DNA from: Thermoanaerobaculia bacterium
GTDB taxonomy: Bacteria; Acidobacteriota; Thermoanaerobaculia; Gp7-AA8
Direction: 5' to 3'
DNA: 64,000 nt
Assembly (NCBI GenBank): GCA_046260175.1
Contig: JBHEPS010000001.1
Location: forward strand, 3,502 to 67,501
Below, piece by piece: positions 6,970 through 20,940 of this stretch. A model generated the notes under the pieces. That model worked only from the letters and a program-made list of their open reading frames with translations, searched no databases and had not been told where the DNA came from. Positions within the stretch are counted from its first letter, which is position 1; each line of letters opens with the position of its first letter. The position numbers were made by a program, and so were the translations under genes.

Positions 6970-7697
6970 TGAGCAAACGAGCTCTCCGCACCCCTCTCAT
7001 CGCTCTCCTCTTCGTGGCCTGCTCGCACGGGGGAACCGCAATCCCCCCGAACGAGTACGGGCTTCCCGTCGTTGGTGAGCGCCGTCTGTACCACCGCCTC
7101 GTCGAAGTCGATCCGGATCAGGTCCTCGTTCCGCTGACGCAGGCCAGTCCGAATATCCAGCTCGACATCCGCTATGCGACCACCGACAACTTCATGAAGA
7201 CCAGGCTGTATCCGAAACCCGAGGCGTGGGCGCGCTGCGAAGTCGCTCTCGCGCTTGCCCGGGTCCAGAGCTCGCTCGAGCCGCGAGGGATCGGGCTGAA
7301 GGTCTTCGACGCCTACCGTCCCTACTCGGTGACCGTGGCGATGTGGGAGCCGATCCGCGACCCCGATTACGTCGCGGACCCGGCGAGAGGCTCTAGGCAC
7401 AATCGCGGCGCGGCGATCGACGTCACCCTCGTCGATCTGGCGACCGGGGAGGAGCTCCCGATGCCCACCCCCTACGACGATTTCACTCCTGCAGCGGGCC
7501 ACGAAGCCTCGGACCTGCCTCTCGCCGCGCTCCAGAATCGCGCCATCCTGCGCGGGGCCATGGAAGCCGAGGGATTCGAGGCACTCGGTTCCGAGTGGTG
7601 GCATTACGACTACCGGGGGTGGGAGAGGTTCCCTCTCATGAACCTTTCGCACAGGGAGCTCGAGCCTCAACGGGCGGCCTGTCCAGCGGCGGACTGA
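6969..7697 (+). CDS. D-alanyl-D-alanine dipeptidase (VanX/DdpX family, M15D), lipoprotein
   Basis: ATGA overlap with the upstream stop. Lipoprotein signal (LLFVACSHG). VanX signatures are DIRYATTDNF, GLKVFDAYRPYS, HNRGAAIDVTL and EWWHYD. Confidence 0.75.
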   Translation: MSKRALRTPLIALLFVACSHGGTAIPPNEYGLPVVGERRLYHRLVEVDPDQVLVPLTQASPNIQLDIRYATTDNFMKTRLYPKPEAWARCEVALALARVQSSLEPRGIGLKVFDAYRPYSVTVAMWEPIRDPDYVADPARGSRHNRGAAIDVTLVDLATGEELPMPTPYDDFTPAAGHEASDLPLAALQNRAILRGAMEAEGFEALGSEWWHYDYRGWERFPLMNLSHRELEPQRAACPAAD

Positions 7698-7709
7698 CCG
7701 GATCGACCG

Positions 7710-9875: not shown

Positions 9876-9966
9876 CGGCTTCGCCTACATTCTGATGGTT
9901 GCATCCTGTAAGCAACGTAACTGCCACGGGTCGAGATTGCAGGCGTCGAAAGGAGAGGGAAACCCT

Positions 9967-10437
9967 ATGGCCACCAAGAAGGCCTCCAAGAAGAAGCGTG
10001 CGGTGAAGAAAGCCGCCCCTGCGAAGGCCGGTAAGGCTTCGAGGAAATCCGCGAAAAGGAAACCCGCGAAAGCAGCATCGAAAAAGAAATCGACTGCTAA
10101 AAAGTCGGCGCGACCCGCCGCCAAAAAAGCCGGCGCGAGGCCGGCAAGAAAAACCGCTCGGAAGCCGGCCAGAAAGACCGCTCGGAAGCCGGCAGCCAGA
10201 AAGACCGCCAGAAAGCCGGCGGCGAAGAAGGCGGTTAAGAGACGCTCCACCGGGGCCTCGAAGCGCTCCACGAAGAAGGTCTCCGCCAGAAAGACCACCC
10301 GGCGAGCCGGAACGAAGTCACGCACAAAGAAGAAAACCGTGATTCAGAAGGCTCAGAGCGTAGTCGGTCGCGCGGTCGACGCCGTGAAGGAAGCCGCTTC
10401 CGACGTCAAGGATACGGTCACCTCGATCGTCACCTGA
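9967..10437 (+). CDS. Histone H1-like Lys/Ala-rich nucleoid protein
   Basis: Strong RBS (AAAGGAGAGGG) 8 nt upstream of the ATG. The 157-aa protein is about 40% Lys/Arg/Ala with ARKTARKP repeats and a C-terminal globular tail. A rho-independent terminator follows. The longer upstream extension in the six-frame track is not supported. Confidence 0.7.
   Translation: MATKKASKKKRAVKKAAPAKAGKASRKSAKRKPAKAASKKKSTAKKSARPAAKKAGARPARKTARKPARKTARKPAARKTARKPAAKKAVKRRSTGASKRSTKKVSARKTTRRAGTKSRTKKKTVIQKAQSVVGRAVDAVKEAASDVKDTVTSIVT
10144..10225. repeat. Tandem 24-nt coding repeat (AGAAAGACCGCTCGGAAGCCGGC-like, about 3.5 copies) inside the H1-like gene
   Basis: The direct repeats are seen in the sequence and encode the ARKTARKP octapeptide units. 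Confidence 0.6.
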
Positions 10438-10459: not shown

Positions 10460-10493
10460 AAACGTGAAAAGGCCCGGCTCGCAGCCGGGCCTT
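10460..10493 (+). terminator. Rho-independent terminator after the H1-like gene
   Basis: AAAAGGCCCGGCTCGCAGCCGGGCCTTTTCATG: a GC-rich 10-bp stem followed by a T tract. Confidence 0.75.
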
Positions 10494-10564: not shown

Positions 10565-11638
10565 TCACTGGACCGTGGCGAAGAAGTTCTGAACGCGTTT
10601 CGGGAAGTAATTGGAATCGAGTCTTCCGTTGCCGTGCTGACGAGCTTTCCGGAAAGCGTCGATCGCCGCCTGCTCTTCCCGGTCGTTGGTCTGTCCGCTC
10701 AGGTACCAGTTGTAGTAATGGGACGCGCCGAGGAATGCCCAGAGCAGCGAGTTCTCGCGCTCTTCGTTCGCGAGACGGTCGAAGGCCTGAATCGATCGGG
10801 TGAAGTCTCCCGAAAAGTACGCCTCGACGGCTGCCCGGACGCGCTGCCTCTTCTGCGAAAGCGCATCCTCGGTTGCCGCAGTTGCGACTTTCGCCGTCGT
10901 CGGCTCCTTGCTCGCCTTCTGCTGGGCGATCTGGTTCTTCGTGATCGCGAGATTGAGGGTCGACAGGGCGCGATTGGCCGTCTTCTCAACCGCGATCCAG
11001 TCCGAAGCCGTGTCGGCCTGTGCCGAGTCCTGCTGAGCCGAGAGCATCAGGCGCTCCCCGTCGGCGAACTCCGGTTGAGAGCCGGCCCTTGCCCGGCGAG
11101 CCTTTTCGTGGGCATCGCGCGCGGCGGTAAGGGCCTCGCGCGCCCGCGATCGTGCGGGGGCGAGATTCGGATCGATCTGGGGTTGCTGGGTGACGGTGGT
11201 CGTAGGAGTGACCGGTTGCTGAATAGGCGGCTGCTGAGCGACCGTCGTCGTGGGGACCTCGGGCTGACTCTGCCTGGCGAGTTGCATCTCCGCGCGTCCG
11301 AGGATTGAATCAGGCGCGCCGAGCTTCACGGATCCCTGACCCGTCGCTTTGCGAAGGTCCTCGATCCCGGCTTCGAGATTCCCGAGCTCGACGTTCGCCA
11401 GCCCTCGGTAATAGTAGGGGTGGTAGGCGATGAACCCGGTGCCCGTCGTCCTCTCGCGGGCGTTCTCCTTCGGCCGCGCCTTGATGGCCGCCGACATCTT
11501 CTGAACCACGACCGACCACTGCCCGCTCTGAGCCGCTTTCAGCCCTGCCTCGTAGTCGTCGAGCCAGTCCGCCTCCGCCGGCGCGGCGGCGAGCGTGAGG
11601 AGCATCGCAGCGACGATCAGGATGCGGACACGAATCAT
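10565..11638 (-). CDS. Secreted hypothetical protein with TPR-like segments; last gene of the kinase operon
   Basis: Signal peptide (MIRVRILIVAAMLLTLAAAPAEA). A Gln/Pro/Thr-rich linker. TPR-like helices (YYYRGLANVELGNLEAGIEDL; WAFLGASHYYNWYLSG). It overlaps the upstream kinase stop by 4 nt. Confidence 0.5.
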   Translation of the reverse strand: MIRVRILIVAAMLLTLAAAPAEADWLDDYEAGLKAAQSGQWSVVVQKMSAAIKARPKENARERTTGTGFIAYHPYYYRGLANVELGNLEAGIEDLRKATGQGSVKLGAPDSILGRAEMQLARQSQPEVPTTTVAQQPPIQQPVTPTTTVTQQPQIDPNLAPARSRAREALTAARDAHEKARRARAGSQPEFADGERLMLSAQQDSAQADTASDWIAVEKTANRALSTLNLAITKNQIAQQKASKEPTTAKVATAATEDALSQKRQRVRAAVEAYFSGDFTRSIQAFDRLANEERENSLLWAFLGASHYYNWYLSGQTNDREEQAAIDAFRKARQHGNGRLDSNYFPKRVQNFFATVQ

Positions 11639-13398
11639 TGTCTGAGAATGTCCTCGACGACCTGATCGAGGTCGACCGGGGAACTGATGTCCGCATGGTA
11701 CGTCGCGGGAGCCCCGCTATCCACTTGAATCCGACGCGTGACGGGCCGCCCGGCGCGGTCGCGGAGGGTCACCTCGTAGGTTCCGGCAATCAAATTCGAA
11801 ACACGAACGGGAACGATTCTGTCGTCTTCGGACAGTTGCACCGGCTGCTCGGACTCGAGATGCTGGAGGCCCTGGATCTCGAGACCAGGGCTTCCCGTCA
11901 GCAGAAGGACGCTCGTGCGGTCGCCGGGAGCGGTCGAGGTGAGTGGAGTCACTCCCGTGATCGAGGCCATCGAGGTTCCGGTGGCCGAGTCGGTCGATGT
12001 CCCGCTGCGGCTGAACATGACCCCTCCGATGATTACGAGGACCAGTGCGGCCGCCGCTGCCCCGATCCAGATCGCGGGCTTTCGCCGGCCGGCCGCGGGT
12101 GAGGTGATCCTCTCGAAGACGGTCGCCGCGGCGGAGCTGCCCAGCTTCGGTTCCACCCGTGTCGGGGCGGCCGAAGCGCCGAGGGAATCGATCATCGTCG
12201 GGACGGCCGCGGCGTCGCCGGAGCCGAAGGCGGTGGGCGCACCGCCGGCCGTTCGCTCGACCACGGTTGGAGCCGCGCCACTCTCGATCACCGTGGGAGC
12301 GGCGTCGGCAGAAGTGACAGAAGTCTGGCGGGTCGATCCCGTGCCGGCGAACGGCTTTCCGTCCACGAGGGTTGGAGTTGCCGACAGGGTGATCATCCGC
12401 TCGCCGAGCCCGTACTTCGACTCCGGCTGAATCGAGGCGCGGACCGACTGGAGGTCCTCGATCAGGGCCGTCGTGTCGTGATGACGCGACTCGCGATCCT
12501 TCTCGAGCACCTTGAGAACGATGCTCTCGAGGGAGGCCGGCACCTTGACGTCCGGGTTGATCTCGGAAAACGAAAGCGGCTTCTCGGTGGCGTGCTTGAG
12601 GATGTATCCGTGAGGGTTGGTGGCGAGGAATGGCGTTCGGCCCGCCAGCATCTCGTAGAGGACGATGCCGAACGAGTAGAGGTCGCTGCGAGCGTCGAGA
12701 TGCTCCCCCTCCTTGATGAATCCGGCCTGCTCGGGAGAGGCGTACTTGAGCTTTCCGAGGAACATGCCGGTCTGTGTCAGCCCCTGGCCCCCCTCGCCTT
12801 CGGAAAGCTGTTTCGCAATCCCGAAGTCGATCACTTTGACGAGCAGCTTTCCCCTCTGGTCCTGGGAAAGCATGATGTTCTCGGGAGAGATGTCGCGATG
12901 AATGATCCCCATCTCGTGGAGGGCGCCGAGGCCGCCGAGCGCCTGGATGGCGATCTCCACCGCCAGGCGCGGGGGGACGGGACCGTTCGACGCGATCCAC
13001 TTCTGGATGTTCACTCCATCGATGAACTCCCAGACCATGTAGTAGGAACCGTCGTCGAGAGTCGAGAAGTCATAGAGCATCGCCAGGCTGCGATGCTTGA
13101 CCGTCGTCGCCAGCCGGGCCTCGTAGAGGAATCGCTGCAACGCCTGCTCGTCGGCGGCGATGTTCGCGCGCATGATCTTGATCACGCGCTGCTCGCCCAG
13201 GTGAATGTGGCGGACCTTGAAGATCTCGCCCATTCCACCGACTCCGAGCCGGTCCAGGATCTGGTACTTGCCGTCGATCAGCCGGGTCGAGTACGTGCGC
13301 TGAAAGTCAGTGACTTTCTCGCTGCACGAAGGACACGCCTCCGCACGCGGATCGAGTTGTGTTTTGCAGCGCAGGCAGATCAGTTCTGTGGGGGCCAT
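11635..13398 (-). CDS. Ser/Thr protein kinase: N-terminal zinc ribbon, kinase domain, Ala/Pro/Thr-rich linker, TM helix and extracellular C-terminal domain
   Basis: CxxC...CxxC ribbon (CLRCKTQLDPRAEACPSC). Kinase motifs GxGxxG (LGVGGMGE), HRDISPENIML, DFGIAK and SPEQ. TM helix AIWIGAAAAALVLVIIGGVMF. Confidence 0.85.
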   Translation of the reverse strand: MAPTELICLRCKTQLDPRAEACPSCSEKVTDFQRTYSTRLIDGKYQILDRLGVGGMGEIFKVRHIHLGEQRVIKIMRANIAADEQALQRFLYEARLATTVKHRSLAMLYDFSTLDDGSYYMVWEFIDGVNIQKWIASNGPVPPRLAVEIAIQALGGLGALHEMGIIHRDISPENIMLSQDQRGKLLVKVIDFGIAKQLSEGEGGQGLTQTGMFLGKLKYASPEQAGFIKEGEHLDARSDLYSFGIVLYEMLAGRTPFLATNPHGYILKHATEKPLSFSEINPDVKVPASLESIVLKVLEKDRESRHHDTTALIEDLQSVRASIQPESKYGLGERMITLSATPTLVDGKPFAGTGSTRQTSVTSADAAPTVIESGAAPTVVERTAGGAPTAFGSGDAAAVPTMIDSLGASAAPTRVEPKLGSSAAATVFERITSPAAGRRKPAIWIGAAAAALVLVIIGGVMFSRSGTSTDSATGTSMASITGVTPLTSTAPGDRTSVLLLTGSPGLEIQGLQHLESEQPVQLSEDDRIVPVRVSNLIAGTYEVTLRDRAGRPVTRRIQVDSGAPATYHADISSPVDLDQVVEDILRQ

Positions 13399-14633
13399 GG
13401 GTCGGTTCCTTCGTCCCGTCTGCGAGATCGAATCGTATAGCTGCAGGCGGGATCGGCGCCGAAGCGGACGATGTCCCCGGGCTGCAGTTTCGCGCTTTCG
13501 ACGCGAGCATTGTTCACATACGTCCCGTTCGCAGATTTGAGATCTTCAATGAGAAACGATGCGGGGGTAACGGTAATTCTCGCATGCCGCCGCGACACGG
13601 CGGGGTGAGGGACCACGATGGCGCAGGTACGGTCCCGGCCGATGAGAGCGCTTTCCCCGCTCACCGCGTGTTTCCCGCTGACCCCTTCGAGCAGCCACTG
13701 CAGGTCGGGAGCACCGCCGGAAGTCCGCACCGTGGCGTCGTCCGCGGCCACGGGAGACGGGGAAGCGGCAAAAATCCGCTGTTTGTAACTCTCGAGAGCG
13801 TCGCAGAGGTCCTGGGCGGTCTGGTAGCGCTTCTTCGGGTCGGGAGCCATCCCCTCGAGCACAATCGCGTCGAGAGAAGAATCGAGGGCCGGCCGAAGCG
13901 CGCTGGGCGGAGCCTTTCCCCCCTTGTAGATCGCCTCGATGAGCTTCGGAAGCGACCGCTGCGTGAATGGCAGTGAGCCCGTCAGCATCTCGTAGAGCAC
14001 GACCGAAGTCGAATAGATGTCGCACGACGCGCCGGCCTCTTTCGGGTCGCGAATCTGCTCGGGTGACATGTAGTGAGGCGTGCCGAGAAGGAAACCCGCC
14101 CTCGTCAGCACGGTCGCCGCCACCGCAGTCGCACCCGCATCTTCCTTGATCTTGGCGATGCCGAAGTCGGTCACCTTCAGTCCGCCCTCTTTCGACTTGA
14201 TGAGATTGGCGGGCTTGATGTCCCGGTGGATGATGCCGCGCCCGTGGGCGTATGTGAGCGCTTCGAGCAGGCACTGCGTGATCGACAGGGCGTCACCTAC
14301 GCTCAACGCGCCCCGTTGAGAGATCAGCTTGTCGACCGGATGGCCGTCCGCGAACTCCATCACGAGGACTGCCCCGGTATCCCTCTCGATGAATTCGTAG
14401 AAACGCGTGATGTACCGGTGGCGGAGCTGCGCGAGAATCCGCGCTTCCTTCACGAAGCGCTTGCGCGCCGTCACCTCGCCCGCAAGCTCGGCAGACATCA
14501 CCTTGAGGACGACCAGGTGACCTTCCGGCAGCAGGGGGGTCGCGCTCAGCGTGCGCCCGATGTAGACGTGACTCATGCCCCCTTCCGACAGGTCGCGCTC
14601 GACGCGGTAATTGCCGACCACCGTGCCGATCAT
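13380..14633 (-). CDS. Ser/Thr protein kinase with a C-terminal FHA domain (cytoplasmic)
   Basis: HRDIKPANLI, DFGIAK and SPEQ motifs. C-terminal FHA signature (ALIGRDRTCAIVV...VSRRHARI...SANGTYVNN). Confidence 0.85.
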   Translation of the reverse strand: MIGTVVGNYRVERDLSEGGMSHVYIGRTLSATPLLPEGHLVVLKVMSAELAGEVTARKRFVKEARILAQLRHRYITRFYEFIERDTGAVLVMEFADGHPVDKLISQRGALSVGDALSITQCLLEALTYAHGRGIIHRDIKPANLIKSKEGGLKVTDFGIAKIKEDAGATAVAATVLTRAGFLLGTPHYMSPEQIRDPKEAGASCDIYSTSVVLYEMLTGSLPFTQRSLPKLIEAIYKGGKAPPSALRPALDSSLDAIVLEGMAPDPKKRYQTAQDLCDALESYKQRIFAASPSPVAADDATVRTSGGAPDLQWLLEGVSGKHAVSGESALIGRDRTCAIVVPHPAVSRRHARITVTPASFLIEDLKSANGTYVNNARVESAKLQPGDIVRFGADPACSYTIRSRRRDEGTDPWPPQN

Positions 14634-15223
14634 GGGACGAGCCTCGGGTCGGTCCAGGAGAGGTCGAGACGGATGAAGACCAGACGTTGAGAGCCGACGC
14701 GGATGATGTCGTGATGCTCGAGATCGCAGCGCGGCTCGATCTCGGCATCGTTCACATAGGTCCCGTTGGTCGAGTTGCGATCCATCAGGATGAATCGTTG
14801 CTCCTCCGGCCTGTAGATCAGGTCGGCGTGATGGTTCGAGGTCTGATCGTCCGCGATTGGAACGTCCGAGCTCGGATCGCGACCGATCGTGTTCTTTCCG
14901 ATCCGGATCGTGAACGCGTCGCCCCGAATCGATGTGGAGATTCCGACCAGCCAGCCCACGACGAGCCCGGATCGCGTCGGCTCGAGGCCGAACGACGCCT
15001 TCGGCACTGCCACCGTCCGGCTGGGAGGCTCGGTCGCCGGCGCGCTCGAGGGCTCAGGACGCCTGGCCGTCCCCACGGGGCCATGCGGATTCGTCGAGCC
15101 TGCCCCGCGCGGACGAACGACCGGGATCTGACCCGTCGACACCTCAGGCGGGCAGAATGGGCAGAGATCCCAGCTTGCGTCGATCCGGTGCCCGCGAGGG
15201 CAGACTTTTTCTCCCACTTTCAT
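14630..15223 (-). CDS. Zinc-ribbon plus FHA domain protein (only the C-terminal 197 codons of the 492-aa six-frame ORF are coding)
   Basis: MKVGEKVCPRGHRIDASWDLCPFCP ribbon, a Pro-rich linker, and an FHA domain (TIRIGKNTIGRD...HHADLIY...STNGTYVND). The ATGA junction with the upstream gene fixes the start at 15223. Confidence 0.7.
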   Translation of the reverse strand: MKVGEKVCPRGHRIDASWDLCPFCPPEVSTGQIPVVRPRGAGSTNPHGPVGTARRPEPSSAPATEPPSRTVAVPKASFGLEPTRSGLVVGWLVGISTSIRGDAFTIRIGKNTIGRDPSSDVPIADDQTSNHHADLIYRPEEQRFILMDRNSTNGTYVNDAEIEPRCDLEHHDIIRVGSQRLVFIRLDLSWTDPRLVP

Positions 15224-16833
15224 CGGTGGAACGCCACCGCAATGGCGTTCCGGCCTCCAAAATTGATGATGTCGCCGTCGCGGAGCTCGTGATGCGCAAC
15301 GCGCTTTCCTCCCACCCAGGTGCCGTTGGACGAGTTCCGATCCACCAATAATACTCTCCCGCCGCTGCGAAGCACCTCGGCGTGCAGGCGCGAGATCCTC
15401 GGGTCCGGGATCACGACCTCGCACTCGTTCCGTTCCCTTCCGATCCGGATTCCGGAACCGGCAAGACCGATCCTCTCGCCCGCCCGAGGTCCGTTGAGGA
15501 AAGTGAGCTTCCCCGTCAAAGAGCTCTCCCCGGTACCCTGGATGGGCTCTGGTTCCGCCGCGGGTGAGCGCACGACCCGGAGCGGCCTCCGGCCGCGGAG
15601 AGCGGCGACGAGCAGGGTAACGACGATCAGGAGAAAAACAGCGGAAGCGACCGTGACGAGGGTCGTCTCGCGCCACCAGGGGATGGAGCCGAGTCTCCCG
15701 CGGACGTCGCGCCGCAGGCGCGAGACATCCGGGTTGCCTGAAAAAGCCTCTTCGGCTCGGTCGAGCTGCGCTTGAGCCTCTCGCCAGCGGCCTCCCTCGA
15801 TCGCGTCGAGAGCGGCGCGGTAGCGGGGCGAGAAGCTGCCGGTCTCCTCGAGCCTCAGATCGAGGTTTCTGAGGCGAGCGTTGGCGACATTGATCGGCAC
15901 GATGAAACGGATGGAGTCGGCGCTGGCGTGACCCCAGGTCACCAGGCCGATCGCGCGCCCCTGGTGATCGGTGACCGGCCCTCCGGACGTTCCCGGGTAG
16001 AGGGGGATATCGGTCTGAAAGACCGGGACGTTCGCGATGTTCTTGCGAACCGCGGTGATGCTGCCACGGTTCACGGTCGCCTCGAGGTCCGTTTCCTGCG
16101 AAAGCCACCCACCGATGGTTTCGTCCGTGCTGCTCGCGACCGATGGGTAACCGAATACCAGAACGGCATCCTGAATGCGCACTTTGTCGGAATCACCCAG
16201 AACCACGGTGGGCAGGTCGTGAGCGGCGATCCGGAGGATAGCGACGTCGTCCCCATGATCCCGAAGCGAGGGGGAGAAATCGAGGATCGAGAAAGGGACC
16301 GTCAGTCCGTTGGAGAGCTCTATCTCGCGCCAGGTGCGGATCTGGCGAAGCGAGCCGGCCTGGGCCAGCATCACGATCAGGGGCTCGAGGGCGGAGGTGC
16401 GCTCGAGCGTACGAAGGGAATCGATCGGGTAACGAGCCAGGAGCGCGGCTGCCGCGCCGTTGCGAGCGAGCTCGCGCTGAACGGCGGCAGGATCGCGAAC
16501 CAGGCTGATGACGTGCCCGCTGGTGAGGATGATCCCGTCCGGATGCACGGCGAAGCCCGATCCTGACCCGCCGGCGCCGGTATCGACCTCGACAGGACGG
16601 GTCGGCCACTCCTGCGGCTCGGCGAGGCCCCGTCGGACGATCCGGTCGTGCGCCGCCCCGGCGGCAGCCGCGTCGATGACGAAACGGGCGGTCGCGTAGG
16701 CGCGAACGCGGACCACCGCCGGTCGAACCTCGTAAACCGTGCGCTGGACGGGAGCGAGCAGCGGCTCATGATCCCGGCAGCCGATGAGAAGCGGAATCGC
16801 GATCAACAGTGCAGCGCGCACCGGGGAGGTCAT
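15220..16833 (-). CDS. Lipoprotein trypsin-like serine protease (periplasmic), one TM helix, and a cytoplasmic FHA domain
   Basis: Lipobox LLIGC. Catalytic His (LTSGHVI), Asp (DVAILRI) and Ser (GTSGGPV). TM helix TLVTVASAVFLLIVVTLLVAAL. C-terminal FHA (IRIGRERNECEVVI...SRLHAEV...SSNGTWVGG). Confidence 0.75.
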   Translation of the reverse strand: MTSPVRAALLIAIPLLIGCRDHEPLLAPVQRTVYEVRPAVVRVRAYATARFVIDAAAAGAAHDRIVRRGLAEPQEWPTRPVEVDTGAGGSGSGFAVHPDGIILTSGHVISLVRDPAAVQRELARNGAAAALLARYPIDSLRTLERTSALEPLIVMLAQAGSLRQIRTWREIELSNGLTVPFSILDFSPSLRDHGDDVAILRIAAHDLPTVVLGDSDKVRIQDAVLVFGYPSVASSTDETIGGWLSQETDLEATVNRGSITAVRKNIANVPVFQTDIPLYPGTSGGPVTDHQGRAIGLVTWGHASADSIRFIVPINVANARLRNLDLRLEETGSFSPRYRAALDAIEGGRWREAQAQLDRAEEAFSGNPDVSRLRRDVRGRLGSIPWWRETTLVTVASAVFLLIVVTLLVAALRGRRPLRVVRSPAAEPEPIQGTGESSLTGKLTFLNGPRAGERIGLAGSGIRIGRERNECEVVIPDPRISRLHAEVLRSGGRVLLVDRNSSNGTWVGGKRVAHHELRDGDIINFGGRNAIAVAFHR

Positions 16834-16840
16834 GGACGTC

Positions 16841-17743
16841 TCAGAACCCGATCCCTTGGCCGAAGTGGCGCCACAACCAGATCAGTGCGCCGGCGAAACC
16901 GAGCCCCACCAGCAGCCAGAGCCAGCCGAGCCCTTTTCCGGAGCTCGATGTGGGCTGGGCTGTCTCGATCCGGCAGACGACGGCGGTGACGTTATCGGGG
17001 GCGCCAGCGGCATACGCCAACTCGACGCAGCGGTCGACCGCCTCTTGAGGTGAGAGCTCGAGAGCTTCGCGGATCGAGTCGATTCCGACGAACCCGTGAA
17101 GCCCGTCCGAGCAGAGCAGATAGGCATCGCCCGGAACGATCTCCAGATCGCTGCCGCTGTCGACCTCGATGTCGGGTGTGACGCCGAGGGAACGCTGGAG
17201 CACATTTCTTCGTGGATGAACGGCGGCTTCCTCATCGGTGAGCAGCCCTTCCCGAACCATGCTCGCGACGACGGAGTGATCCTGGGTCAGCTGTTCCAGC
17301 AGCCCCTGGCGCAACCGGTAAATCCGCGAATCGCCGACATGAGTGAACCAGGCCCGCGACTCCCGCGCGTAGAGGACGGAAACGGTCGTGCCCATCCCCC
17401 GGAGCTCGAGATTGTCCTGCGCGTGGTCGAACACCGCCTTGTTGGCCCCCGCGATTGCGGCTGACAACGCCGGGCCGGGATCAACCAGCGGGTCTGCCGA
17501 AAAACGCTCCTGGACGGTCGTCGCGGCCAGGCGGGAGGCCGTGGCACCCCCGCGGTGGCCTCCCATCCCATCGGCGACGATCATGAGCGTTCCGCCTCCG
17601 GGGCTATCCGGGCCGCTCGAGACGAGACTGAAGTCCTGATTCTCGGTTCGAACCTTGCCGACCTCGCTCCGGTGGGCGACCTCGAGACGCAGTGATCCCG
17701 CGCCTTTGCGACCCGAAGGGGTGGTTTGGCTGTCGCTCTGCAT
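16841..17743 (-). CDS. PP2C-family Ser/Thr phosphatase with a C-terminal membrane anchor
   Basis: PP2C motifs (RTENQDFSL; VADGMGGH; DSRIYRL; LLCSDGLHG). C-terminal TM segment WLWLLVGLGFAGALIWLW. Confidence 0.85.
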   Translation of the reverse strand: MQSDSQTTPSGRKGAGSLRLEVAHRSEVGKVRTENQDFSLVSSGPDSPGGGTLMIVADGMGGHRGGATASRLAATTVQERFSADPLVDPGPALSAAIAGANKAVFDHAQDNLELRGMGTTVSVLYARESRAWFTHVGDSRIYRLRQGLLEQLTQDHSVVASMVREGLLTDEEAAVHPRRNVLQRSLGVTPDIEVDSGSDLEIVPGDAYLLCSDGLHGFVGIDSIREALELSPQEAVDRCVELAYAAGAPDNVTAVVCRIETAQPTSSSGKGLGWLWLLVGLGFAGALIWLWRHFGQGIGF

Positions 17744-17787: not shown

Positions 17788-17874
17788 CGGATTATACAGG
17801 AGCCGGGCTCCGGGCCTGAGGTTCCCTGAAGGCTTTCACGGACTCTGAGTCACCGGGCGAATGGATATAATCCG
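17788..17874. promoter_or_regulatory. Divergent promoter region with a perfect 9-bp inverted pair CGGATTATA (17788-17796) / TATAATCCG (17866-17874). Each gives an outward-facing consensus TATAAT -10 box
   Basis: TATAAT consensus elements are rare in this roughly 68% GC sequence. The minus-facing box sits about 45 nt upstream of the PP2C ATG. The plus-facing box sits 14 nt upstream of the second ATG (17885) of the cyclase gene. Confidence 0.45.
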
Positions 17875-19549
17875 GAAACCGGCCATGGAACAGTTCCAGA
17901 TCCACTACGTCGATCTCGGCGCCTCGAGAATGTATGACCTCCGGGAAAGCCCCGTGAGCGTCGGGAGGATCGAGGGAAACGAGATCGTTCTGAACCACCC
18001 ATCGGTTTCGAGACGACACGCGCGATTCGAGTTGCGTGGAGAGGAGTGGTGGATCGTCGACCTCAACTCCACGAACGGAGTGAAAATCAACGGATCGTCG
18101 GCGCCCGAAGCAGGCCTCAAATCGGGGGATCGCCTTCTGATCGGGTCCGTAGAGGCAGAGATCAGGTCCATTCCGGCGATCGGCTTCTCGGAAGAAAGCC
18201 CCTTCGACAACGTCTCGGGAACGGTCATTCGCCGCATCTCTGACTTCAATTCGGAATTCGGTCTCGAAGCGACTCCCCAGCCGGATCGGCAGGCGCCGGG
18301 GAAAGCGGACACCCGGGAAAAGATCTTCGCCGTCCTGGTCCAGGTGGCGAAGGTGCTGCTCGAATCGGACGATCTGAGCCAGGTGCTCCGCACCGTCATG
18401 GATCTGATCTTCAAGTACCTCCCGGTAGAGCGCGGGCTGCTCGTCCTGTTCGACGAGGAAGGGAATCCCATCCCGCGTACGACCAAGTTCAGCGAGGGGT
18501 CGGACGAGGAGATTCCGATCTCCCGGACGATTCTCAAGATGGTCGCGGAGCAGCAGGTCTCCCTGCTGACTTCGAATGCGCTCGAGGACGCCCGGCTTCT
18601 CGGAGGGAAGTCGATCGCCATCCACGGCATCCGTTCGGCGATGTGCGTGCCGCTCTGGAACCGGGGCCGGGTCATCGGGGCCGTGCAGGTCGACTCGCCG
18701 ATTCACATCGGCAGATTCACGGAAGACGACCTCGACCTGCTCACCGCGCTCGCGAACTTCGCAGCAGTCGCCATCGAGCGTGCGCAGCTTTCCGAGAAGA
18801 TCGAGGAAGAGCGAAAGATCCGAGGAAAGCTGGAGCGATATCACTCGCCGGCGGTCGTGGACGAGATCGTTCGCCGCGCCGGCGCCGCCGAAGAAAAGGA
18901 AGTTCGAAACGCCGAGCTGTCCATTCTCTTCGCCGATATCTGCGGGTTTACTTCGATCTCCGAAACAAAAAAGCCGGAAGAGGTCTCGGAGTTCCTCGCC
19001 AATTTCTTCAGCTGCGCGGTCGAGGCGATCTTCACATGGGGAGGAACGCTCGACAAATTCATCGGCGATGCAGTGATGGCATTCTTCGGTGCCCCTCTGG
19101 CACAGGAAGATCACGCGGCGCGCGCCGTCCGCGCCGGCTTGATGATGCGGGAGCTCGTCGACGAATGGAACGAAGAGCGCCAGAGGGAAGGGCTTCCTCC
19201 CGTTCAGATCCGGGTCGGCATCAATTCCGGCCCGGCGGTCGTCGGCAATGTCGGCACCGAGAAGCGCGTCGATTACACGGTCCTCGGCACATCGGTCAAC
19301 ATCGCGTCCCGCCTCGAGAGCGGCGTCGCCAAGCCGGGCCAGGTCGTCGTGTCGCAGAACACCTTCGACCGCCTCGCCACCAAATTCGAGTCCGTTCCGC
19401 TCGGCGAGTTTCCGCTCAAGGGTCTGCAGCAGCGCATGCCCGTCCACCAGATCGTTCGTGAGCTCGACGCGGCCACCAGCACCCTCCCCACGCGGAGCAC
19501 CCTGACCAATGAAAAGACGACACTCGGTCCTGACGATCGCGGGGAGTGA
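17861..19549 (+). CDS. FHA-GAF-class III adenylate/guanylate cyclase (the start may instead be 17885, MEQFQ...)
   Basis: N-terminal FHA (VSVGRIEGNEIVL...SRRHARF...STNGVKING). A GAF-like middle region. Cyclase motifs FADICGFTSISE and FIGDAVMAFFGAP. Confidence 0.8.
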   Translation: MDIIRKPAMEQFQIHYVDLGASRMYDLRESPVSVGRIEGNEIVLNHPSVSRRHARFELRGEEWWIVDLNSTNGVKINGSSAPEAGLKSGDRLLIGSVEAEIRSIPAIGFSEESPFDNVSGTVIRRISDFNSEFGLEATPQPDRQAPGKADTREKIFAVLVQVAKVLLESDDLSQVLRTVMDLIFKYLPVERGLLVLFDEEGNPIPRTTKFSEGSDEEIPISRTILKMVAEQQVSLLTSNALEDARLLGGKSIAIHGIRSAMCVPLWNRGRVIGAVQVDSPIHIGRFTEDDLDLLTALANFAAVAIERAQLSEKIEEERKIRGKLERYHSPAVVDEIVRRAGAAEEKEVRNAELSILFADICGFTSISETKKPEEVSEFLANFFSCAVEAIFTWGGTLDKFIGDAVMAFFGAPLAQEDHAARAVRAGLMMRELVDEWNEERQREGLPPVQIRVGINSGPAVVGNVGTEKRVDYTVLGTSVNIASRLESGVAKPGQVVVSQNTFDRLATKFESVPLGEFPLKGLQQRMPVHQIVRELDAATSTLPTRSTLTNEKTTLGPDDRGE

Positions 19550-20324
19550 CTCCGGAGGAGGAGCCGGGATTCAGGCCGACCTGAAAACCTTCGCCTGGTT
19601 CGGAATCCACGGATCGAGCGCGATCACCGCCGTTACTGCCCAGAACAGCCGCGAGGTGACGGCGGTGTTTCCGCTGCCCGACGAAATCGTCGAGGCTCAG
19701 ATCGACGCCGTGATGAGCGACCTCGGCCCGTCGGTCGTCAAGATCGGAATGCTGGGAACGACCCAGCTCGTGACGACCGTCGCGCGCAAACTGCGCGAGT
19801 GGAGGCCTCCCCAGATCGTGCTCGATCCCGTGATGATCGCGTCGAGCGGGGCGCGGCTGCTGACCGAGGATGCCGTCGCCGCGCTTCGTACCGAGCTCCT
19901 GCCGCTGGCGACGGTACTCACGCCCAACTGGCCCGAGGCGGCCGAGCTCATCGGCGAAGATCCGGGAGAAACCGCCGACCTCGCTCATTTCGCGAGCCGG
20001 TTGTCGGCGCTCGGCTCGTTCGCGATCGTTCTGAAGGGTGGGCACCTTCCGGGATCACCCGTGGTGGATACGCTCGTCATCGGGGAAGGGATCTGGGAGT
20101 ATCGGCACGAACGCATCGCCGGGGCGGAAGGGCATGGTACCGGTTGTGCTCTTGCATCGGCCGTGGCGGCCAATCTCGCTCTCGGGAAAGACCTTCCAGA
20201 AGCCGTAGCCGCCGCGACGGACTTCGTTCATCAGGTGCTTCTCGACCGATACTCAACCGGCTCCTCCAGGGAAAACTACCTCGGCATTCTCGCGGAACCA
20301 TCAGGAGCTGCCGGACGTCGATAG
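19509..20324 (+). CDS. thiD: Hydroxymethylpyrimidine/phosphomethylpyrimidine kinase
   Basis: VLTIAGSDSGGGAGIQADLKTF and the rest of the ThiD fold. It overlaps the cyclase gene by 41 nt. Confidence 0.85.
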   Translation: MKRRHSVLTIAGSDSGGGAGIQADLKTFAWFGIHGSSAITAVTAQNSREVTAVFPLPDEIVEAQIDAVMSDLGPSVVKIGMLGTTQLVTTVARKLREWRPPQIVLDPVMIASSGARLLTEDAVAALRTELLPLATVLTPNWPEAAELIGEDPGETADLAHFASRLSALGSFAIVLKGGHLPGSPVVDTLVIGEGIWEYRHERIAGAEGHGTGCALASAVAANLALGKDLPEAVAAATDFVHQVLLDRYSTGSSRENYLGILAEPSGAAGRR

Positions 20325-20340
20325 TAGGCAGTACCAGAGC

Positions 20341-20940
20341 ATGAAGGTGACCTTCTCGACCGCCCGAGTCCTTTTCCAGCCGCTGCTGATCGGCCTGGTG
20401 GCGGCCCTCGTCGTCCGCGCGACGCTGTTCCAGGCGTTCTCGATCCCTTCGGCCTCGATGTCGCCCACCCTTCAGCCTGGCGACCATATCCTGGTCACCC
20501 CGACTCCCCCGTTCCTCCCGACGCGCGCCCCCGAGCGGGGAGAGGTTGTCGTATTTCGCAATCCGGCTGCCGGGCCGGGATACTTCGTGAAGCGGGTCAT
20601 CGCGGTCGCGGGCGACCATCTCGAGATCCGGGACGGCCACATCCTGCTCAACTCCGGGCGGCTCGACGAGCGGTACGTCAACGGCGAACGCTCCGAAGGG
20701 ATGGTTGCCGAGATCATCCCGGCGGGGTACGTTTTCGTCATGGGCGACCACCGCTCGGACTCCATCGACAGCCGAAGCTGGGGATTGCTCGAGACGAAAA
20801 AAGTCGTCGGAAGGGCACGGCTCATTTTCTGGTCTTCCGCCTCGGTAGGGGCTTCGAGCGCAAGCGCGCACTCGGCCACGGGAGAACCCGTCGGTCCCCG
20901 CGGTCCCCGCTGGGACCGGATCTTCCGGATCATTCGCTGA
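20341..20940 (+). CDS. lepB: Signal peptidase I
   Basis: SMSPTL catalytic Ser box. GDHRSDSIDSRSWG (Lys box and D-box equivalents). N-terminal TM helix. Confidence 0.85.
   Translation: MKVTFSTARVLFQPLLIGLVAALVVRATLFQAFSIPSASMSPTLQPGDHILVTPTPPFLPTRAPERGEVVVFRNPAAGPGYFVKRVIAVAGDHLEIRDGHILLNSGRLDERYVNGERSEGMVAEIIPAGYVFVMGDHRSDSIDSRSWGLLETKKVVGRARLIFWSSASVGASSASAHSATGEPVGPRGPRWDRIFRIIR

What the first reader, a model, noticed from the sequence alone, without database searches (positions are those of the whole stretch)
15220..16833. Periplasmic trypsin-like protease tethered through one TM helix to a cytoplasmic FHA domain
The product has a lipobox and a complete His/Asp/Ser triad (TSGHV / DVAILRI / GTSGGP) on the periplasmic side. 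A single TM helix and an FHA phosphothreonine-binding domain lie on the cytoplasmic side. This topology implies that cytoplasmic kinase activity, from the two adjacent STKs, could position or activate a periplasmic protease (inside-out signalling). It could equally be an RseP/DegS-like regulated-proteolysis step controlled by phosphorylation. I do not recognise this fusion as a characterised family.
Basis: inference. Interest (0 to 1): 0.6.

Follow-up and report, generated by a model that had tools for sequence, protein, structure and literature searches.

The report
Periplasmic HtrA-like protease with cytoplasmic FHA
This gene encodes a membrane-spanning protein with an HtrA-type protease outside the inner membrane and a phosphothreonine-reading FHA domain inside; it always sits beside Ser/Thr kinase and phosphatase genes in several bacterial phyla, so kinase signalling probably controls protein cleavage in the cell envelope, and nobody has studied it.

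Summary
Window 15220-16833 (-) encodes a 537-aa protein with these parts:
- a lipoprotein signal (LIGC);
- an HtrA-like protease with invariant His107/Asp196/Ser283 and no PDZ domain;
- a helical hairpin region;
- one TM helix (about 390-412);
- a disordered linker;
- a canonical FHA domain (441-537).

This is not a one-off fusion. More than 300 protein clusters share the architecture, from Acidobacteriota, Geobacteraceae/'Deltaproteobacteria', Ca. Eisenbacteria and hot-spring assemblies (bacterium HR13; a MAG labelled Hydrogenobacter thermophilus). In every FHA-type locus inspected, the gene is linked to a Hanks kinase, a PP2C phosphatase and a small FHA protein that usually carries a zinc ribbon. 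A sister clade keeps the protease-hairpin-TM part but has Rhodanese(+PilZ) in place of FHA, and its one inspected locus has no kinase.

The membrane kinase in this operon carries 3-7 T-Φ-Φ-[E/D] motifs in its juxtamembrane segment in all 63 orthologues. Shuffling gives 0.17.

Best reading: phosphothreonine-dependent docking or clustering of a periplasmic protease, which is inside-out control. The direction of signalling and the substrate are inferred, not shown. No paper or curated family covers it. I rate it a new variant of a known kind, of moderately high interest.

The parts
15220..16833 (-). Whole gene: signal/lipobox, HtrA-like protease, helical hairpins, TM helix, linker and FHA (537 aa plus stop)
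16777..16833 (-). Residues 1-19: signal peptide ending in the lipobox L-I-G-C19
   Evidence: Read directly from the sequence. Cys19 is at least 90% conserved. A lipobox-like motif occurs in 95 of 117 homologues, and the rest have Sec-type signals.
15859..16755 (-). Residues 27-325: periplasmic HtrA-type (S1C-like) protease domain. His107 = 16513-16515, Asp196 = 16246-16248, Ser283 = 15985-15987.
   Evidence: Pfam Trypsin_2. The PDB profile search hits DegP-like/MucD/HtrA1/HhoA/DegQ at E 1e-24 to 1e-17. Foldseek matches the HtrA1 protease domain with TM-score 0.73-0.80 normalised to the target. The triad is invariant.
16354..16506 (-). Residues 110-160: helical insertion of about 50 aa directly after the catalytic His. 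It is absent from solved HtrA proteases.
   Evidence: HMM alignment gaps against DegP/MucD. AF2 helices at 106-113, 115-134, 137-145 and 149-159 with pLDDT above 90. Also present in distant family members.
16078..16137 (-). Residues 233-252: conserved insertion of about 17 aa (ASSTDExIGGWLSxxSDLE) at the position of HtrA loop LD
   Evidence: 17-residue gap in MucD/DegP-like at this point. Mean pairwise identity is 0.83, the highest in the periplasmic part. AF2 pLDDT is below 50. The assignment to loop LD rests on my knowledge of DegS numbering (GNPYNLGQT, residues 159-167).
15679..15846 (-). Residues 330-385: periplasmic helical hairpins (TPR-like) between the protease and the membrane. They occupy the place where HtrA proteases have PDZ domains.
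   Evidence: AF2 helices at 334-346, 350-363 and 368-383 with pLDDT above 90. No PDZ hit in Pfam. Conserved across the wide family.
15598..15666 (-). Residues 390-412: the single transmembrane helix, followed by RGRRP
   Evidence: Kyte-Doolittle peak of 2.88 at 392-410. AF2 helix 392-411. Net charge of the family is +3.4 after the helix and +1.7 before it. Sequence conservation is poor, at 0.24.
15514..15597 (-). Residues 413-440: disordered cytoplasmic linker
   Evidence: AF2 pLDDT below 50 at 414-437. Identity is 0.32 and the length varies. Most orthologues carry a T-x-E-T-x-V-x-P motif here, but the window protein does not.
15223..15513 (-). Residues 441-537: cytoplasmic FHA domain with G465-R466, S481-R482-x-H484 and N503-G504
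   Evidence: Pfam FHA, E 7e-20. The phosphothreonine-binding residues are invariant. This is the most conserved region of the protein, at 0.86 identity.
16841..17743 (-). PP2C phosphatase with a C-terminal membrane anchor. First gene of the operon, 7 nt upstream of the target.
   Evidence: Pfam PP2C_2/PP2C. Syntenic in the related loci.
14630..15223 (-). Zinc-ribbon + FHA protein (197 aa). Its start overlaps the target's stop codon (ATGA).
   Evidence: A conserved [E/S]-R-T-V-A motif lies upstream of its FHA domain.
13380..14633 (-). Soluble Hanks kinase with a C-terminal FHA domain
   Evidence: Pfam Pkinase E 2e-44 and FHA E 3e-22. Syntenic.
11635..13398 (-). Membrane Hanks kinase: N-terminal zinc ribbon, kinase domain with a PknB-like T-Q-T activation loop, juxtamembrane Thr-motif array, TM helix and an ectodomain of about 125 aa
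   Evidence: Pfam Pkinase E 9e-43. NCBIfam PknB-type kinase domain at 272 bits, below the cut-off of 450, with no PASTA domain. Alignment of 63 orthologues.
12076..12399 (-). Juxtamembrane segment of the membrane kinase (aa 334-441), with six T-Φ-Φ-[E/D] motifs (TLVD, TVIE, TVVE, TMID, TRVE, TVFE). These are candidate phosphothreonine docking sites for FHA domains.
   Evidence: All 63 orthologues carry 3-7 copies (mean 4.4). Shuffles give 0.17, and the kinase-domain and ectodomain controls give 0.56 and 0.32.
10565..11638 (-). Secreted protein (357 aa) with weak TPR-like features and no gathering-threshold Pfam hit. It has a signal peptide and Pro/Thr/Gln-rich linkers. It is the last gene of the operon, and its start overlaps the kinase stop codon. 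It is a candidate periplasmic partner or substrate.
   Evidence: Syntenic in 59 loci.
17861..19549 (+). Divergently transcribed FHA-GAF-class III nucleotide cyclase. It is specific to this clade but tightly conserved next to the operon.
   Evidence: Pfam. 69-93% identity in the related loci. Same position in L001.

Best explanation
The gene encodes a bitopic inner-membrane protein. Its N-terminal two thirds are exported. They consist of a catalytically competent HtrA-type serine protease without PDZ domains, followed by helical hairpins. This part is held at the outer face of the inner membrane by an N-terminal lipid anchor and by one TM helix. The C-terminal FHA domain is cytoplasmic.

The protein is the signature component of a conserved cassette. 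The cassette comprises the protease-FHA, a membrane Hanks kinase, a periplasmic (lipo)protein, a small FHA protein that usually has a zinc ribbon, and a PP2C phosphatase. In this clade it is enlarged by a second kinase-FHA and an FHA-GAF-cyclase.

Most likely mechanism (inferred):
1. The kinase(s) autophosphorylate on threonines. Candidate sites are the T-Q-T activation loop and the array of 3-7 T-Φ-Φ-[E/D] motifs in the juxtamembrane segment of the membrane kinase.
2. The FHA domain of the protease docks on these phosphothreonines.
3. Docking recruits and clusters protease molecules at the active kinase. Because HtrA proteases work as trimers, this would favour assembly of the active oligomer.
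4. Cleavage of a periplasmic target is thereby switched on or localised. Candidate targets are the co-encoded secreted protein or the kinase ectodomain.
5. The PP2C phosphatase resets the system.

The TM helix is poorly conserved and the linker is disordered, so control is by positioning or oligomerisation, not by a conformational change passed through the membrane.

What is shown: domain composition, topology logic, intact catalytic and phosphothreonine-binding residues, conserved gene linkage, and the motif array. What is inferred: the binding partner, the direction of signalling, the clustering mechanism and the substrate.
For: Architecture and topology.

Protease type: HtrA-like by sequence and by fold. 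The triad and the GNSGGP motif are invariant in 117 close homologues and conserved at 25-35% identity.

FHA domain: the phosphothreonine-binding residues are invariant, and FHA is the most conserved region, at 0.86 identity.

Operon structure: the operon genes have 4-19 nt overlaps or, at one junction, a 7-nt gap.

Gene linkage:
- The order PP2C, protease-FHA, Zn-FHA, kinase-FHA, membrane kinase, secreted protein is kept wherever the contig reaches, in the 80 species-level loci returned for Thermoanaerobaculia and other Acidobacteriota MAGs, out of 125 relatives found.
- Members at only about 30% identity are again next to Pkinase, a small FHA protein and PP2C. These come from an Acidobacteriota MAG, a 'Deltaproteobacteria' MAG, Geobacteraceae, bacterium HR13 and Ca. 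Eisenbacteria. The one exception is the P0159 locus, which has Pkinase and a weak FHA-like ORF but no PP2C.

Domain swap: a sister clade shares 41-46% identity over the protease-hairpin-TM part. After the TM helix it carries Rhodanese, with PilZ in some members, instead of FHA. Its one inspected locus has no kinase or PP2C. A constant periplasmic enzyme with exchangeable cytoplasmic reader domains is the pattern expected if the cytoplasmic side is the input.

Docking sites: the T-Φ-Φ-[E/D] motifs are enriched 26-fold in the kinase juxtamembrane segment in all 63 orthologues.

Precedent: inside-out control of periplasmic proteolysis is established for LapD/LapG (PMC3032545, PMC3032553, found).
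Against: - There is no direct evidence for binding, for the direction of signalling or for any substrate.
- The window protein's own TM-FHA linker lacks the T-x-E-T-x-V-x-P motif that most orthologues have, so any intramolecular phospho-switch is not universal.
- The T-Φ-Φ-[E/D] array is specific to the Thermoanaerobaculia kinases. Distant cassettes have other Thr repeats (GTQAY in L084) or short juxtamembrane segments.
- Oligomeric state could not be predicted with these tools.
- The most conserved periplasmic element, the LD-loop insert, is modelled with low confidence, so its role is unknown.
- The domain-swap argument rests on one inspected locus of the Rhodanese variant.
Confidence: 0.55

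Rival explanations
1. Outside-in co-receptor. The periplasmic protease domain senses envelope damage by binding or cutting unfolded proteins or the co-encoded periplasmic protein. Its cytoplasmic FHA domain then acts on the kinases, for example by binding their phosphorylated activation loop, scaffolding substrates or protecting phosphothreonines from the PP2C. Information would flow from the protease to the kinase.
For: HtrA proteases such as DegS are stress sensors (established knowledge). The gene linkage fits this direction equally well. In the compact five-gene cassettes the kinases have only disordered ectodomains with no obvious sensor fold, so another protein might do the sensing.
Against: The disordered, variable linker and the unconserved TM helix give no route for passing a periplasmic conformational change inward. 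The sister clade swaps the cytoplasmic domain for small-molecule reader types (PilZ, Rhodanese) while keeping the protease, which fits cytoplasmic input better. In the window's clade the membrane kinase has its own conserved ectodomain.
Confidence: 0.2
2. A constitutive envelope quality-control protease, with the FHA domain acting only as a static anchor. The FHA domain would tether a housekeeping HtrA-like protease to a kinase-organised envelope or cell-wall complex without switching its activity.
For: Envelope genes lie nearby and are syntenic in this clade: PBP1a at 7710-9875, an M15 D-Ala-D-Ala dipeptidase, and signal peptidase I. The closest named FHA relative is mycobacterial FhaB/FipA of the pknB cell-wall operon, although the score is well below the cut-off.
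Against: PBP1a is a separate transcription unit, because a convergent gene lies between it and the operon. It is also absent from the distant cassettes. A reversible kinase/phosphatase pair is co-inherited with the protease in every clade inspected except the P0159 (Acidobacteriota) locus, which has no PP2C. That is hard to explain for a purely static tether.
Confidence: 0.15
3. Effector of an anti-phage or conflict system. A kinase/FHA/PP2C-regulated protease would be triggered on infection.
For: PADLOC gives domain-level hits: the kinases to PD-T4-6 and mad6, the cyclase to PycC, and the protease weakly to RT-Protease. Trypsin-like and FHA domains occur in conflict systems (PMC7159879).
Against: The hits are generic catalytic-domain similarities. 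The cassette sits at a fixed chromosomal position with the same housekeeping neighbours across the 80 species-level loci inspected, unlike mobile defence islands. The protease is exported, whereas abortive-infection effectors act in the cytoplasm or on the membrane. GC content is flat across the region.
Confidence: 0.05

Closest known systems
HtrA/DegP/DegQ/DegS proteases (MEROPS S1C)
   Same: Chymotrypsin-fold protease domain with a His-Asp-Ser triad and the GNSGGP motif. These are the best sequence and fold matches. Both are periplasmic, and like DegS this protein is membrane-tethered.
   Different: It has no PDZ domain. Helical hairpins, a TM helix and a cytoplasmic FHA domain take that place. 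It has a helical insert of about 50 aa after the catalytic His and a conserved insert of about 17 aa in loop LD. It scores far below the curated family cut-offs: 68 vs 416 for DegP and 33 vs 423 for DegS.
LapD/LapG inside-out signalling (Pseudomonas fluorescens)
   Same: In that system a cytoplasmic signal read at the inner membrane controls a periplasmic protease (PMC3032545, PMC3032553). A sister clade of the present family even carries a PilZ (c-di-GMP-binding) domain on the cytoplasmic side.
   Different: In Lap the receptor and the protease are separate proteins. LapG is a cysteine protease. The signal is c-di-GMP read by a degenerate EAL domain and passed on through a HAMP domain. This is a resemblance in logic only, not homology.
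Actinobacterial fhaA-fhaB-pstP-rodA-pbpA-pknA-pknB cluster
   Same: Both have a membrane-anchored PP2C, two small FHA proteins and two Hanks kinases in one operon. The membrane kinase here has a PknB-like catalytic domain and a T-Q-T activation loop. The nearest named relative of the FHA domain is FhaB/FipA.
   Different: There are no RodA or PbpA genes in the operon and no PASTA domains. A protease-FHA fusion is present instead. FhaB/FipA membership is not met (50 vs 125 bits).
MarP (Rv3671c) family of membrane-tethered periplasmic S1 proteases
   Same: Both are PDZ-less trypsin-fold proteases held at the outer face of the cytoplasmic membrane. From established knowledge, MarP cleaves the peptidoglycan hydrolase RipA under acid stress.
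   Different: MarP is anchored by four N-terminal TM helices and has no cytoplasmic signalling domain. The NCBIfam MarP model scores 25 against a cut-off of 250.
Bitopic proteins with a cytoplasmic FHA domain, one TM helix and a periplasmic domain (T3SS YscD/PrgH type, Myxococcus GltG)
   Same: Same bitopic logic: a cytoplasmic FHA fold, one TM helix and a periplasmic domain. Pfam Yop-YscD_cpl and NCBIfam GltG give partial hits on the FHA part.
   Different: In those proteins the FHA is N-terminal and the periplasmic part is structural, not enzymatic. Here the order is reversed and the periplasmic part is a protease.
FHA-FHA-Trypsin protein of Bacteroides thetaiotaomicron (NP_811686.1)
   Same: This is the only FHA + trypsin combination I found in the literature. 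It is listed in a 2008 survey of prokaryotic serine proteases (PMC2605481).
   Different: The domain order is opposite (two N-terminal FHA domains). It was catalogued only and never characterised. I could not retrieve its sequence, so any relationship to this family is untested.

Membership tests
HtrA/DegP/DegS family (S1C) | Chymotrypsin-fold protease domain with a His-Asp-Ser triad | tested here: met
   His107, Asp196 and Ser283 are invariant. Foldseek TM-score to the HtrA1 protease domain is 0.73-0.80. The PDB profile search gives E 9e-24 to a DegP-like protease.
HtrA/DegP/DegS family (S1C) | One or more C-terminal PDZ domains | tested here: not met
   No PDZ hit in Pfam. After the protease, AF2 shows helical hairpins, a TM helix and FHA.
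HtrA/DegP/DegS family (S1C) | Score above the curated family thresholds (TIGR02037 Do family, TIGR02038 DegS, NF041521 HhoA/HtrA) | tested here: not met
   68.5 vs 416, 32.6 vs 423 and 85.9 vs 450 bits.
HtrA/DegP/DegS family (S1C) | Trimer as the basic functional unit | not testable with these tools
   Only single-chain structure prediction was available.
FHA domain (PF00498) | Score above the gathering threshold, plus the conserved phosphothreonine-binding residues (Gly-Arg, Ser-x-x-His, Asn-Gly) | tested here: met
   71.7 bits against a cut-off of 20.7. G465-R466, S481/H484 and N503-G504 are invariant.
FHA domain (PF00498) | Actual binding of phosphothreonine peptides | not testable with these tools
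   This needs biochemistry.
Bacterial lipoprotein | Signal peptide ending in a lipobox [LVI][ASTVI][GAS]C | tested here: met
   L-I-G-C19 is present. 95 of 117 homologues have a lipobox-like motif. Lipidation itself is not testable here.
FhaB/FipA (Rv0019c) equivalog NF049868 | Score above the curated cut-off | tested here: not met
   50.2 vs 125 bits, over the FHA part only.
MarP family NF033740 | Score above the curated cut-off; four N-terminal TM helices | tested here: not met
   25.2 vs 250 bits. Only one internal TM helix is present.
LapD/LapG-type inside-out system | A separate receptor with HAMP-GGDEF-EAL domains and a LapG-type cysteine protease | tested here: not met
   None of these domains is found in the operon proteins. 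The analogy is in logic only.
Actinobacterial pknB-type cell-wall cluster | PASTA-domain kinase, and RodA/PbpA genes inside the operon | tested here: not met
   No PASTA, FtsW/RodA or transpeptidase domain is found in operon genes 10565-17743. PBP1a (7710-9875) is a separate unit beyond a convergent gene.
Known anti-phage defence systems (PADLOC) | A specific system-level match rather than a generic domain match; location in a variable island | tested here: not met
   Only generic kinase, cyclase and protease domain hits were found. The chromosomal context is fixed in all 80 related loci inspected.

The most novel reading that the evidence does not exclude
This family could be the first example of Hanks-type Ser/Thr kinase signalling being sent outwards across the inner membrane. 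A phosphothreonine mark in the cytoplasm, read by the FHA tail, would assemble or position a periplasmic HtrA-like protease and so gate envelope proteolysis. The same protease chassis with Rhodanese/PilZ tails would then be a general 'cytoplasmic reader to periplasmic protease' design found in several phyla.
Probability: 0.4. Interest if true: 0.8.

Novelty: new variant of a known kind. Interest (0 to 1): 0.62.

Why it matters
Bacterial Hanks kinases are thought of as receptors that carry information inwards. FHA proteins are seen as their cytoplasmic adaptors, and HtrA proteases as PDZ-regulated sensors of envelope stress. This family joins an FHA reader to a PDZ-less HtrA protease across the membrane, and it is co-inherited with a kinase and, in all but one of the loci inspected, a phosphatase, in at least four phylum-level groups. 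If the inferred mechanism holds, it gives a direct, testable route by which cytoplasmic phosphorylation controls proteolysis in the periplasm. It would parallel the c-di-GMP-driven LapD/LapG system but use threonine phosphorylation. It also gives a defined starting point for studying Ser/Thr signalling in Acidobacteriota, an abundant soil phylum whose signalling is barely studied, and in groups with cultured members (Geobacteraceae; Hydrogenobacter thermophilus).

Tried and rejected
- Same-side topology: rejected. There are only two hydrophobic segments, an N-terminal export signal and one TM helix.
- Dead protease: rejected. The triad and the oxyanion-hole motif are invariant.
- Homology between the operon's secreted TPR-like protein and the ectodomain of a distant cassette's kinase (a Rosetta-stone test): none found, best E 2.4. 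There was also no similarity between that protein and the conserved lipoprotein of the five-gene cassettes.
- Defence-system reading: only generic PADLOC hits.
- Promoter/terminator scan of the operon: uninformative, apart from a terminator-like hairpin at 10476-10491 (+), downstream of the + strand Lys/Ala-rich ORF in the gap before the operon's 3' end.
- Foldseek against AFDB50, to find the architecture in UniProt: the library was not available.
- Literature searches for an FHA-HtrA/trypsin fusion: these found only a catalogue entry for B. thetaiotaomicron FHA-FHA-Tryp.
- A universal intramolecular phospho-switch through the TM-FHA linker motif: not supported for the window protein, whose linker lacks the motif.
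- ORFs 17792-19447 (-) and 14630-16108 (-): these are, respectively, a shadow ORF antisense to the cyclase gene and an over-extended reading of the Zn-FHA gene.
Full report
**1. The observation**

The ORF at 15220-16833 on the minus strand is real and gives 537 aa. All the quoted motifs are there: lipobox L16-I-G-C19, TSGHV (His107), DVAILRI (Asp196) and GTSGGP (Ser283). Pfam finds Trypsin_2 at residues 91-297 (E 5e-22) and FHA at 462-526 (E 7e-20). A hydropathy scan finds only two hydrophobic segments, the N-terminal signal (1-20) and 387-418.

An AlphaFold2 model built on 117 homologues has mean pLDDT 81.8 and shows these parts:
- a confident protease domain;
- three helical hairpin helices (334-383);
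- one long helix at 392-411;
- a disordered stretch at 414-437;
- a beta-sandwich at 441-536.

An export signal followed by one TM helix, which is itself followed by RGRRP, puts the protease in the periplasm and the FHA domain in the cytoplasm.

**2. The protease domain**

By sequence, the best solved relatives are DegP-like protease, MucD, HtrA1, HhoA, DegQ, AlgW and DegS (profile E 9e-24 to 1e-11). By fold, the HtrA1 protease domain matches with a target-normalised TM-score of 0.73-0.80.

It differs from HtrA proteases in three ways:
- It has no PDZ domain.
- It has a four-helix insertion of about 50 residues directly after the catalytic His (110-160). AF2 models this confidently.
- It has a 17-residue insertion, ASSTDExIGGWLSxxSDLE (233-252), where HtrA proteases have loop LD. 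I assign this position from my knowledge of DegS numbering. In DegS, loop LD residues are part of the allosteric activation cluster between subunits.

The LD-loop insert is the most conserved periplasmic segment (0.83 mean pairwise identity), yet it is modelled with pLDDT below 50. This pattern suggests it contacts a partner or a neighbouring subunit.

NCBIfam places the protein far below every curated cut-off: HhoA/HtrA 86 vs 450, Do family 68 vs 416, DegS 33 vs 423, MarP 25 vs 250 and FhaB/FipA 50 vs 125.

**3. The FHA domain**

The canonical phosphothreonine-binding residues G465-R466, S481-x-x-H484 and N503-G504 are invariant in 117 homologues. They are conserved even in relatives at 25-35% identity. 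FHA is the most conserved region of the protein (0.86 identity). The TM helix (0.24) and the linker (0.32) are the least conserved.

**4. The operon**

On the minus strand the genes are, in order:
- PP2C with a C-terminal anchor (16841-17743);
- the protease-FHA (15220-16833);
- a zinc-ribbon/FHA protein (14630-15223);
- a soluble Hanks kinase with FHA (13380-14633);
- a membrane Hanks kinase (11635-13398);
- a signal-peptide-bearing protein with weak TPR-like features (10565-11638).

The genes overlap by 4-19 nt, except for a 7-nt gap between the PP2C gene and the protease-FHA gene. An FHA-GAF-nucleotide cyclase gene (17861-19549) is transcribed divergently.

**5. Conservation of the architecture**

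A search of 5.8 billion proteins gave 597 hits. The best 120 are all full length with the same two domains, and come from Thermoanaerobaculia and other Acidobacteriota MAGs. A scan of one genome per species found 125 relatives. The 80 that were kept are all from Thermoanaerobaculia or unclassified Acidobacteriota MAGs.

An exhaustive HMMER search of 1.84 billion representatives found 103 clusters at E <= 1e-30. Many are 520-600 aa proteins at 25-35% identity, aligned end to end. An alignment of these shows the same plan: signal, protease with helical insert, hairpins, TM helix, variable linker and FHA.

A profile search and a search with a distant member each listed 120 proteins. All 120 from the profile search carry Trypsin_2 + FHA, as do most of those from the other search. 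The source names include Acidobacteriota, Ca. Sulfotelmatobacter, 'Deltaproteobacteria', Geobacteraceae, Ca. Eisenbacteria, bacterium HR13 and a Hydrogenobacter thermophilus MAG. This is therefore a large family spread over several phyla, annotated only as 'trypsin-like peptidase domain-containing protein' or 'serine protease Do'.

**6. Conservation of the gene linkage**

In the 80 close loci the whole order is kept wherever the contig is long enough: cyclase (divergent), PP2C, protease-FHA, Zn-FHA, kinase-FHA, membrane kinase and secreted protein, followed further on by PBP1a.

Six distant loci were inspected:
- Four of them (L085, L086, L089, L090) have a compact cassette: protease-FHA, Pkinase, a conserved lipoprotein of about 165-180 aa, a small FHA protein (with a zinc ribbon in three of the four) and PP2C.
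- The Ca. Eisenbacteria locus has Pkinase, PP2C, FHA and two tandem protease-FHA genes.
- An Acidobacteriota locus has protease-FHA, a zinc-ribbon protein with a weak FHA-like match, and Pkinase.

The functional coupling of this protease to Ser/Thr phosphorylation is therefore well supported by comparative genomics.

**7. Evidence on the direction of signalling**

A sister clade (P0484-P0502) shares 41-46% identity over the signal-protease-hairpin-TM part. After the TM helix it carries a Rhodanese domain, and in some members also a PilZ domain, instead of FHA. The one locus of this type that I inspected has no kinase or PP2C nearby.

A constant periplasmic enzyme joined to interchangeable cytoplasmic reader domains is what one expects if the cytoplasmic side is the input and the protease the output. 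LapD/LapG shows that bacteria do control periplasmic proteolysis from inside the cell (PMC3032545, PMC3032553).

The unconserved TM helix and the disordered linker make a conformational relay through the membrane unlikely. Recruitment or clustering is the more plausible mode of control.

**8. Candidate docking sites**

The juxtamembrane segment of the membrane kinase carries six T-Φ-Φ-[E/D] motifs in the window: TLVD, TVIE, TVVE, TMID, TRVE and TVFE. All 63 orthologues have 3-7 copies (mean 4.4). Shuffled sequences give 0.17, and the kinase-domain and ectodomain controls give 0.56 and 0.32.

The activation loop has a conserved PknB-like T-Q-T. The Zn-FHA protein has a conserved R-T-V-A motif upstream of its FHA domain. 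The operon and its divergent neighbour encode four FHA domains between them, so a multivalent phosphothreonine platform is a reasonable model. It would naturally bring several protease molecules together, and HtrA proteases act as trimers (established knowledge).

This step is inference. In distant cassettes the Thr-rich elements differ: GTQAY repeats in the kinase, and T-x-I-[YF] motifs in the small FHA proteins.

**9. Rival readings**

- Outside-in co-receptor: cannot be excluded, and I give it 0.2.
- Static tether for a housekeeping protease near cell-wall enzymes: 0.15. PBP1a, an M15 dipeptidase and signal peptidase I are neighbours in this clade. But PBP1a is a separate transcription unit beyond a convergent gene, and it is absent from the distant cassettes.
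- Defence system: unlikely, at 0.05. The PADLOC hits are generic and the chromosomal context is fixed.

**10. Novelty**

No paper in the searchable library describes an FHA-HtrA or FHA-trypsin fusion with a function. A 2008 survey lists only an FHA-FHA-Tryp protein of Bacteroides thetaiotaomicron, which has the opposite domain order.

All the parts are known kinds. The combination, the conserved cassette and the implied outward phospho-signalling are uncharacterised. I therefore rate it a new variant of a known kind, with interest 0.62. I put a 0.4 probability on the most novel reading, a phosphothreonine-gated periplasmic protease.

Noticed in passing
window 17861-19549 (+): An FHA-GAF-class III adenylate/guanylate cyclase gene is transcribed divergently from the operon. 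It is the most conserved neighbour (69-93% identity across the loci) and is specific to this clade. This suggests that the same phosphothreonine signal also feeds cyclic-nucleotide synthesis.
   Followed up: partly
window 12076-12399 (-), aa 334-441 of the membrane kinase: An array of 3-7 T-Φ-Φ-[E/D] motifs (consensus about [DE]-A-T-V-M-E-R) lies in the juxtamembrane segment of all 63 orthologous kinases. It is 26-fold over shuffles.
   Followed up: yes
L085 10923-11426; L086 11230-11778; L089 4888-5379; L090 8887-9435: The compact five-gene cassettes of distant members encode a conserved lipoprotein of about 165-180 aa between the kinase and the Zn-FHA gene. It has a lipobox, a conserved Cys pair and an EFKPGxW motif, and no Pfam family. 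It is a candidate periplasmic partner or substrate of the protease.
   Followed up: partly
L085 9638-10906; L086 9641-11248; L089 3590-4906; L090 7637-8890: The kinases of those cassettes have long, charged, apparently disordered extracytoplasmic tails. The tails end in a conserved C-terminal motif (G-x-W-K-I-[KRD]-K, or EKWEVIK). This recalls the C-terminal peptides that activate DegS, although no PDZ domain is present here.
   Followed up: no
P0484-P0502 (for example P0489, 707 aa); locus L087: A sister clade has the same signal-protease-hairpin-TM chassis but a cytoplasmic Rhodanese domain, and in some members also a PilZ domain, instead of FHA. The one locus inspected has response-regulator neighbours and no kinase.
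   Followed up: partly
L088 5383-6948 and 7001-8569: The Ca. Eisenbacteria locus has two tandem protease-FHA paralogues behind Pkinase, PP2C and FHA.
   Followed up: no
window 9829-10437 (+), likely true start at ATG 9967: A Lys/Ala-rich, histone-H1-like ORF (MATKKASKKKRAVKKAAPAK...) with no Pfam hit lies convergent to the operon. It separates the operon from PBP1a. A terminator-like hairpin follows at 10476-10491.
   Followed up: partly
window 4930-9875 and 19509-20940: The neighbours are a GGDEF-EAL protein (4930-6969 +), an M15 D-Ala-D-Ala dipeptidase (6600-7697 +), PBP1a (7710-9875 -), a ThiD-like kinase (19509-20324 +) and signal peptidase I (20341-20940 +). PBP1a follows the operon in most of the loci long enough to show it. 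In locus L001, signal peptidase I lies beyond the cyclase gene, and a gene for an S41 peptidase follows PBP1a.
   Followed up: partly
window 11635-13398 (-) and 14630-15223 (-): Both the membrane kinase and the small FHA protein begin with a four-cysteine zinc-ribbon motif (CLRC...CPSC and CPRGH...CPFC). It is conserved in the orthologues and its role is unknown.
   Followed up: no
window 17792-19447 (-) and 14630-16108 (-): These long ORFs are artefacts. The first is a shadow ORF antisense to the cyclase gene. The second is an over-extension of the Zn-FHA gene into the protease-FHA gene in another frame.
   Followed up: yes
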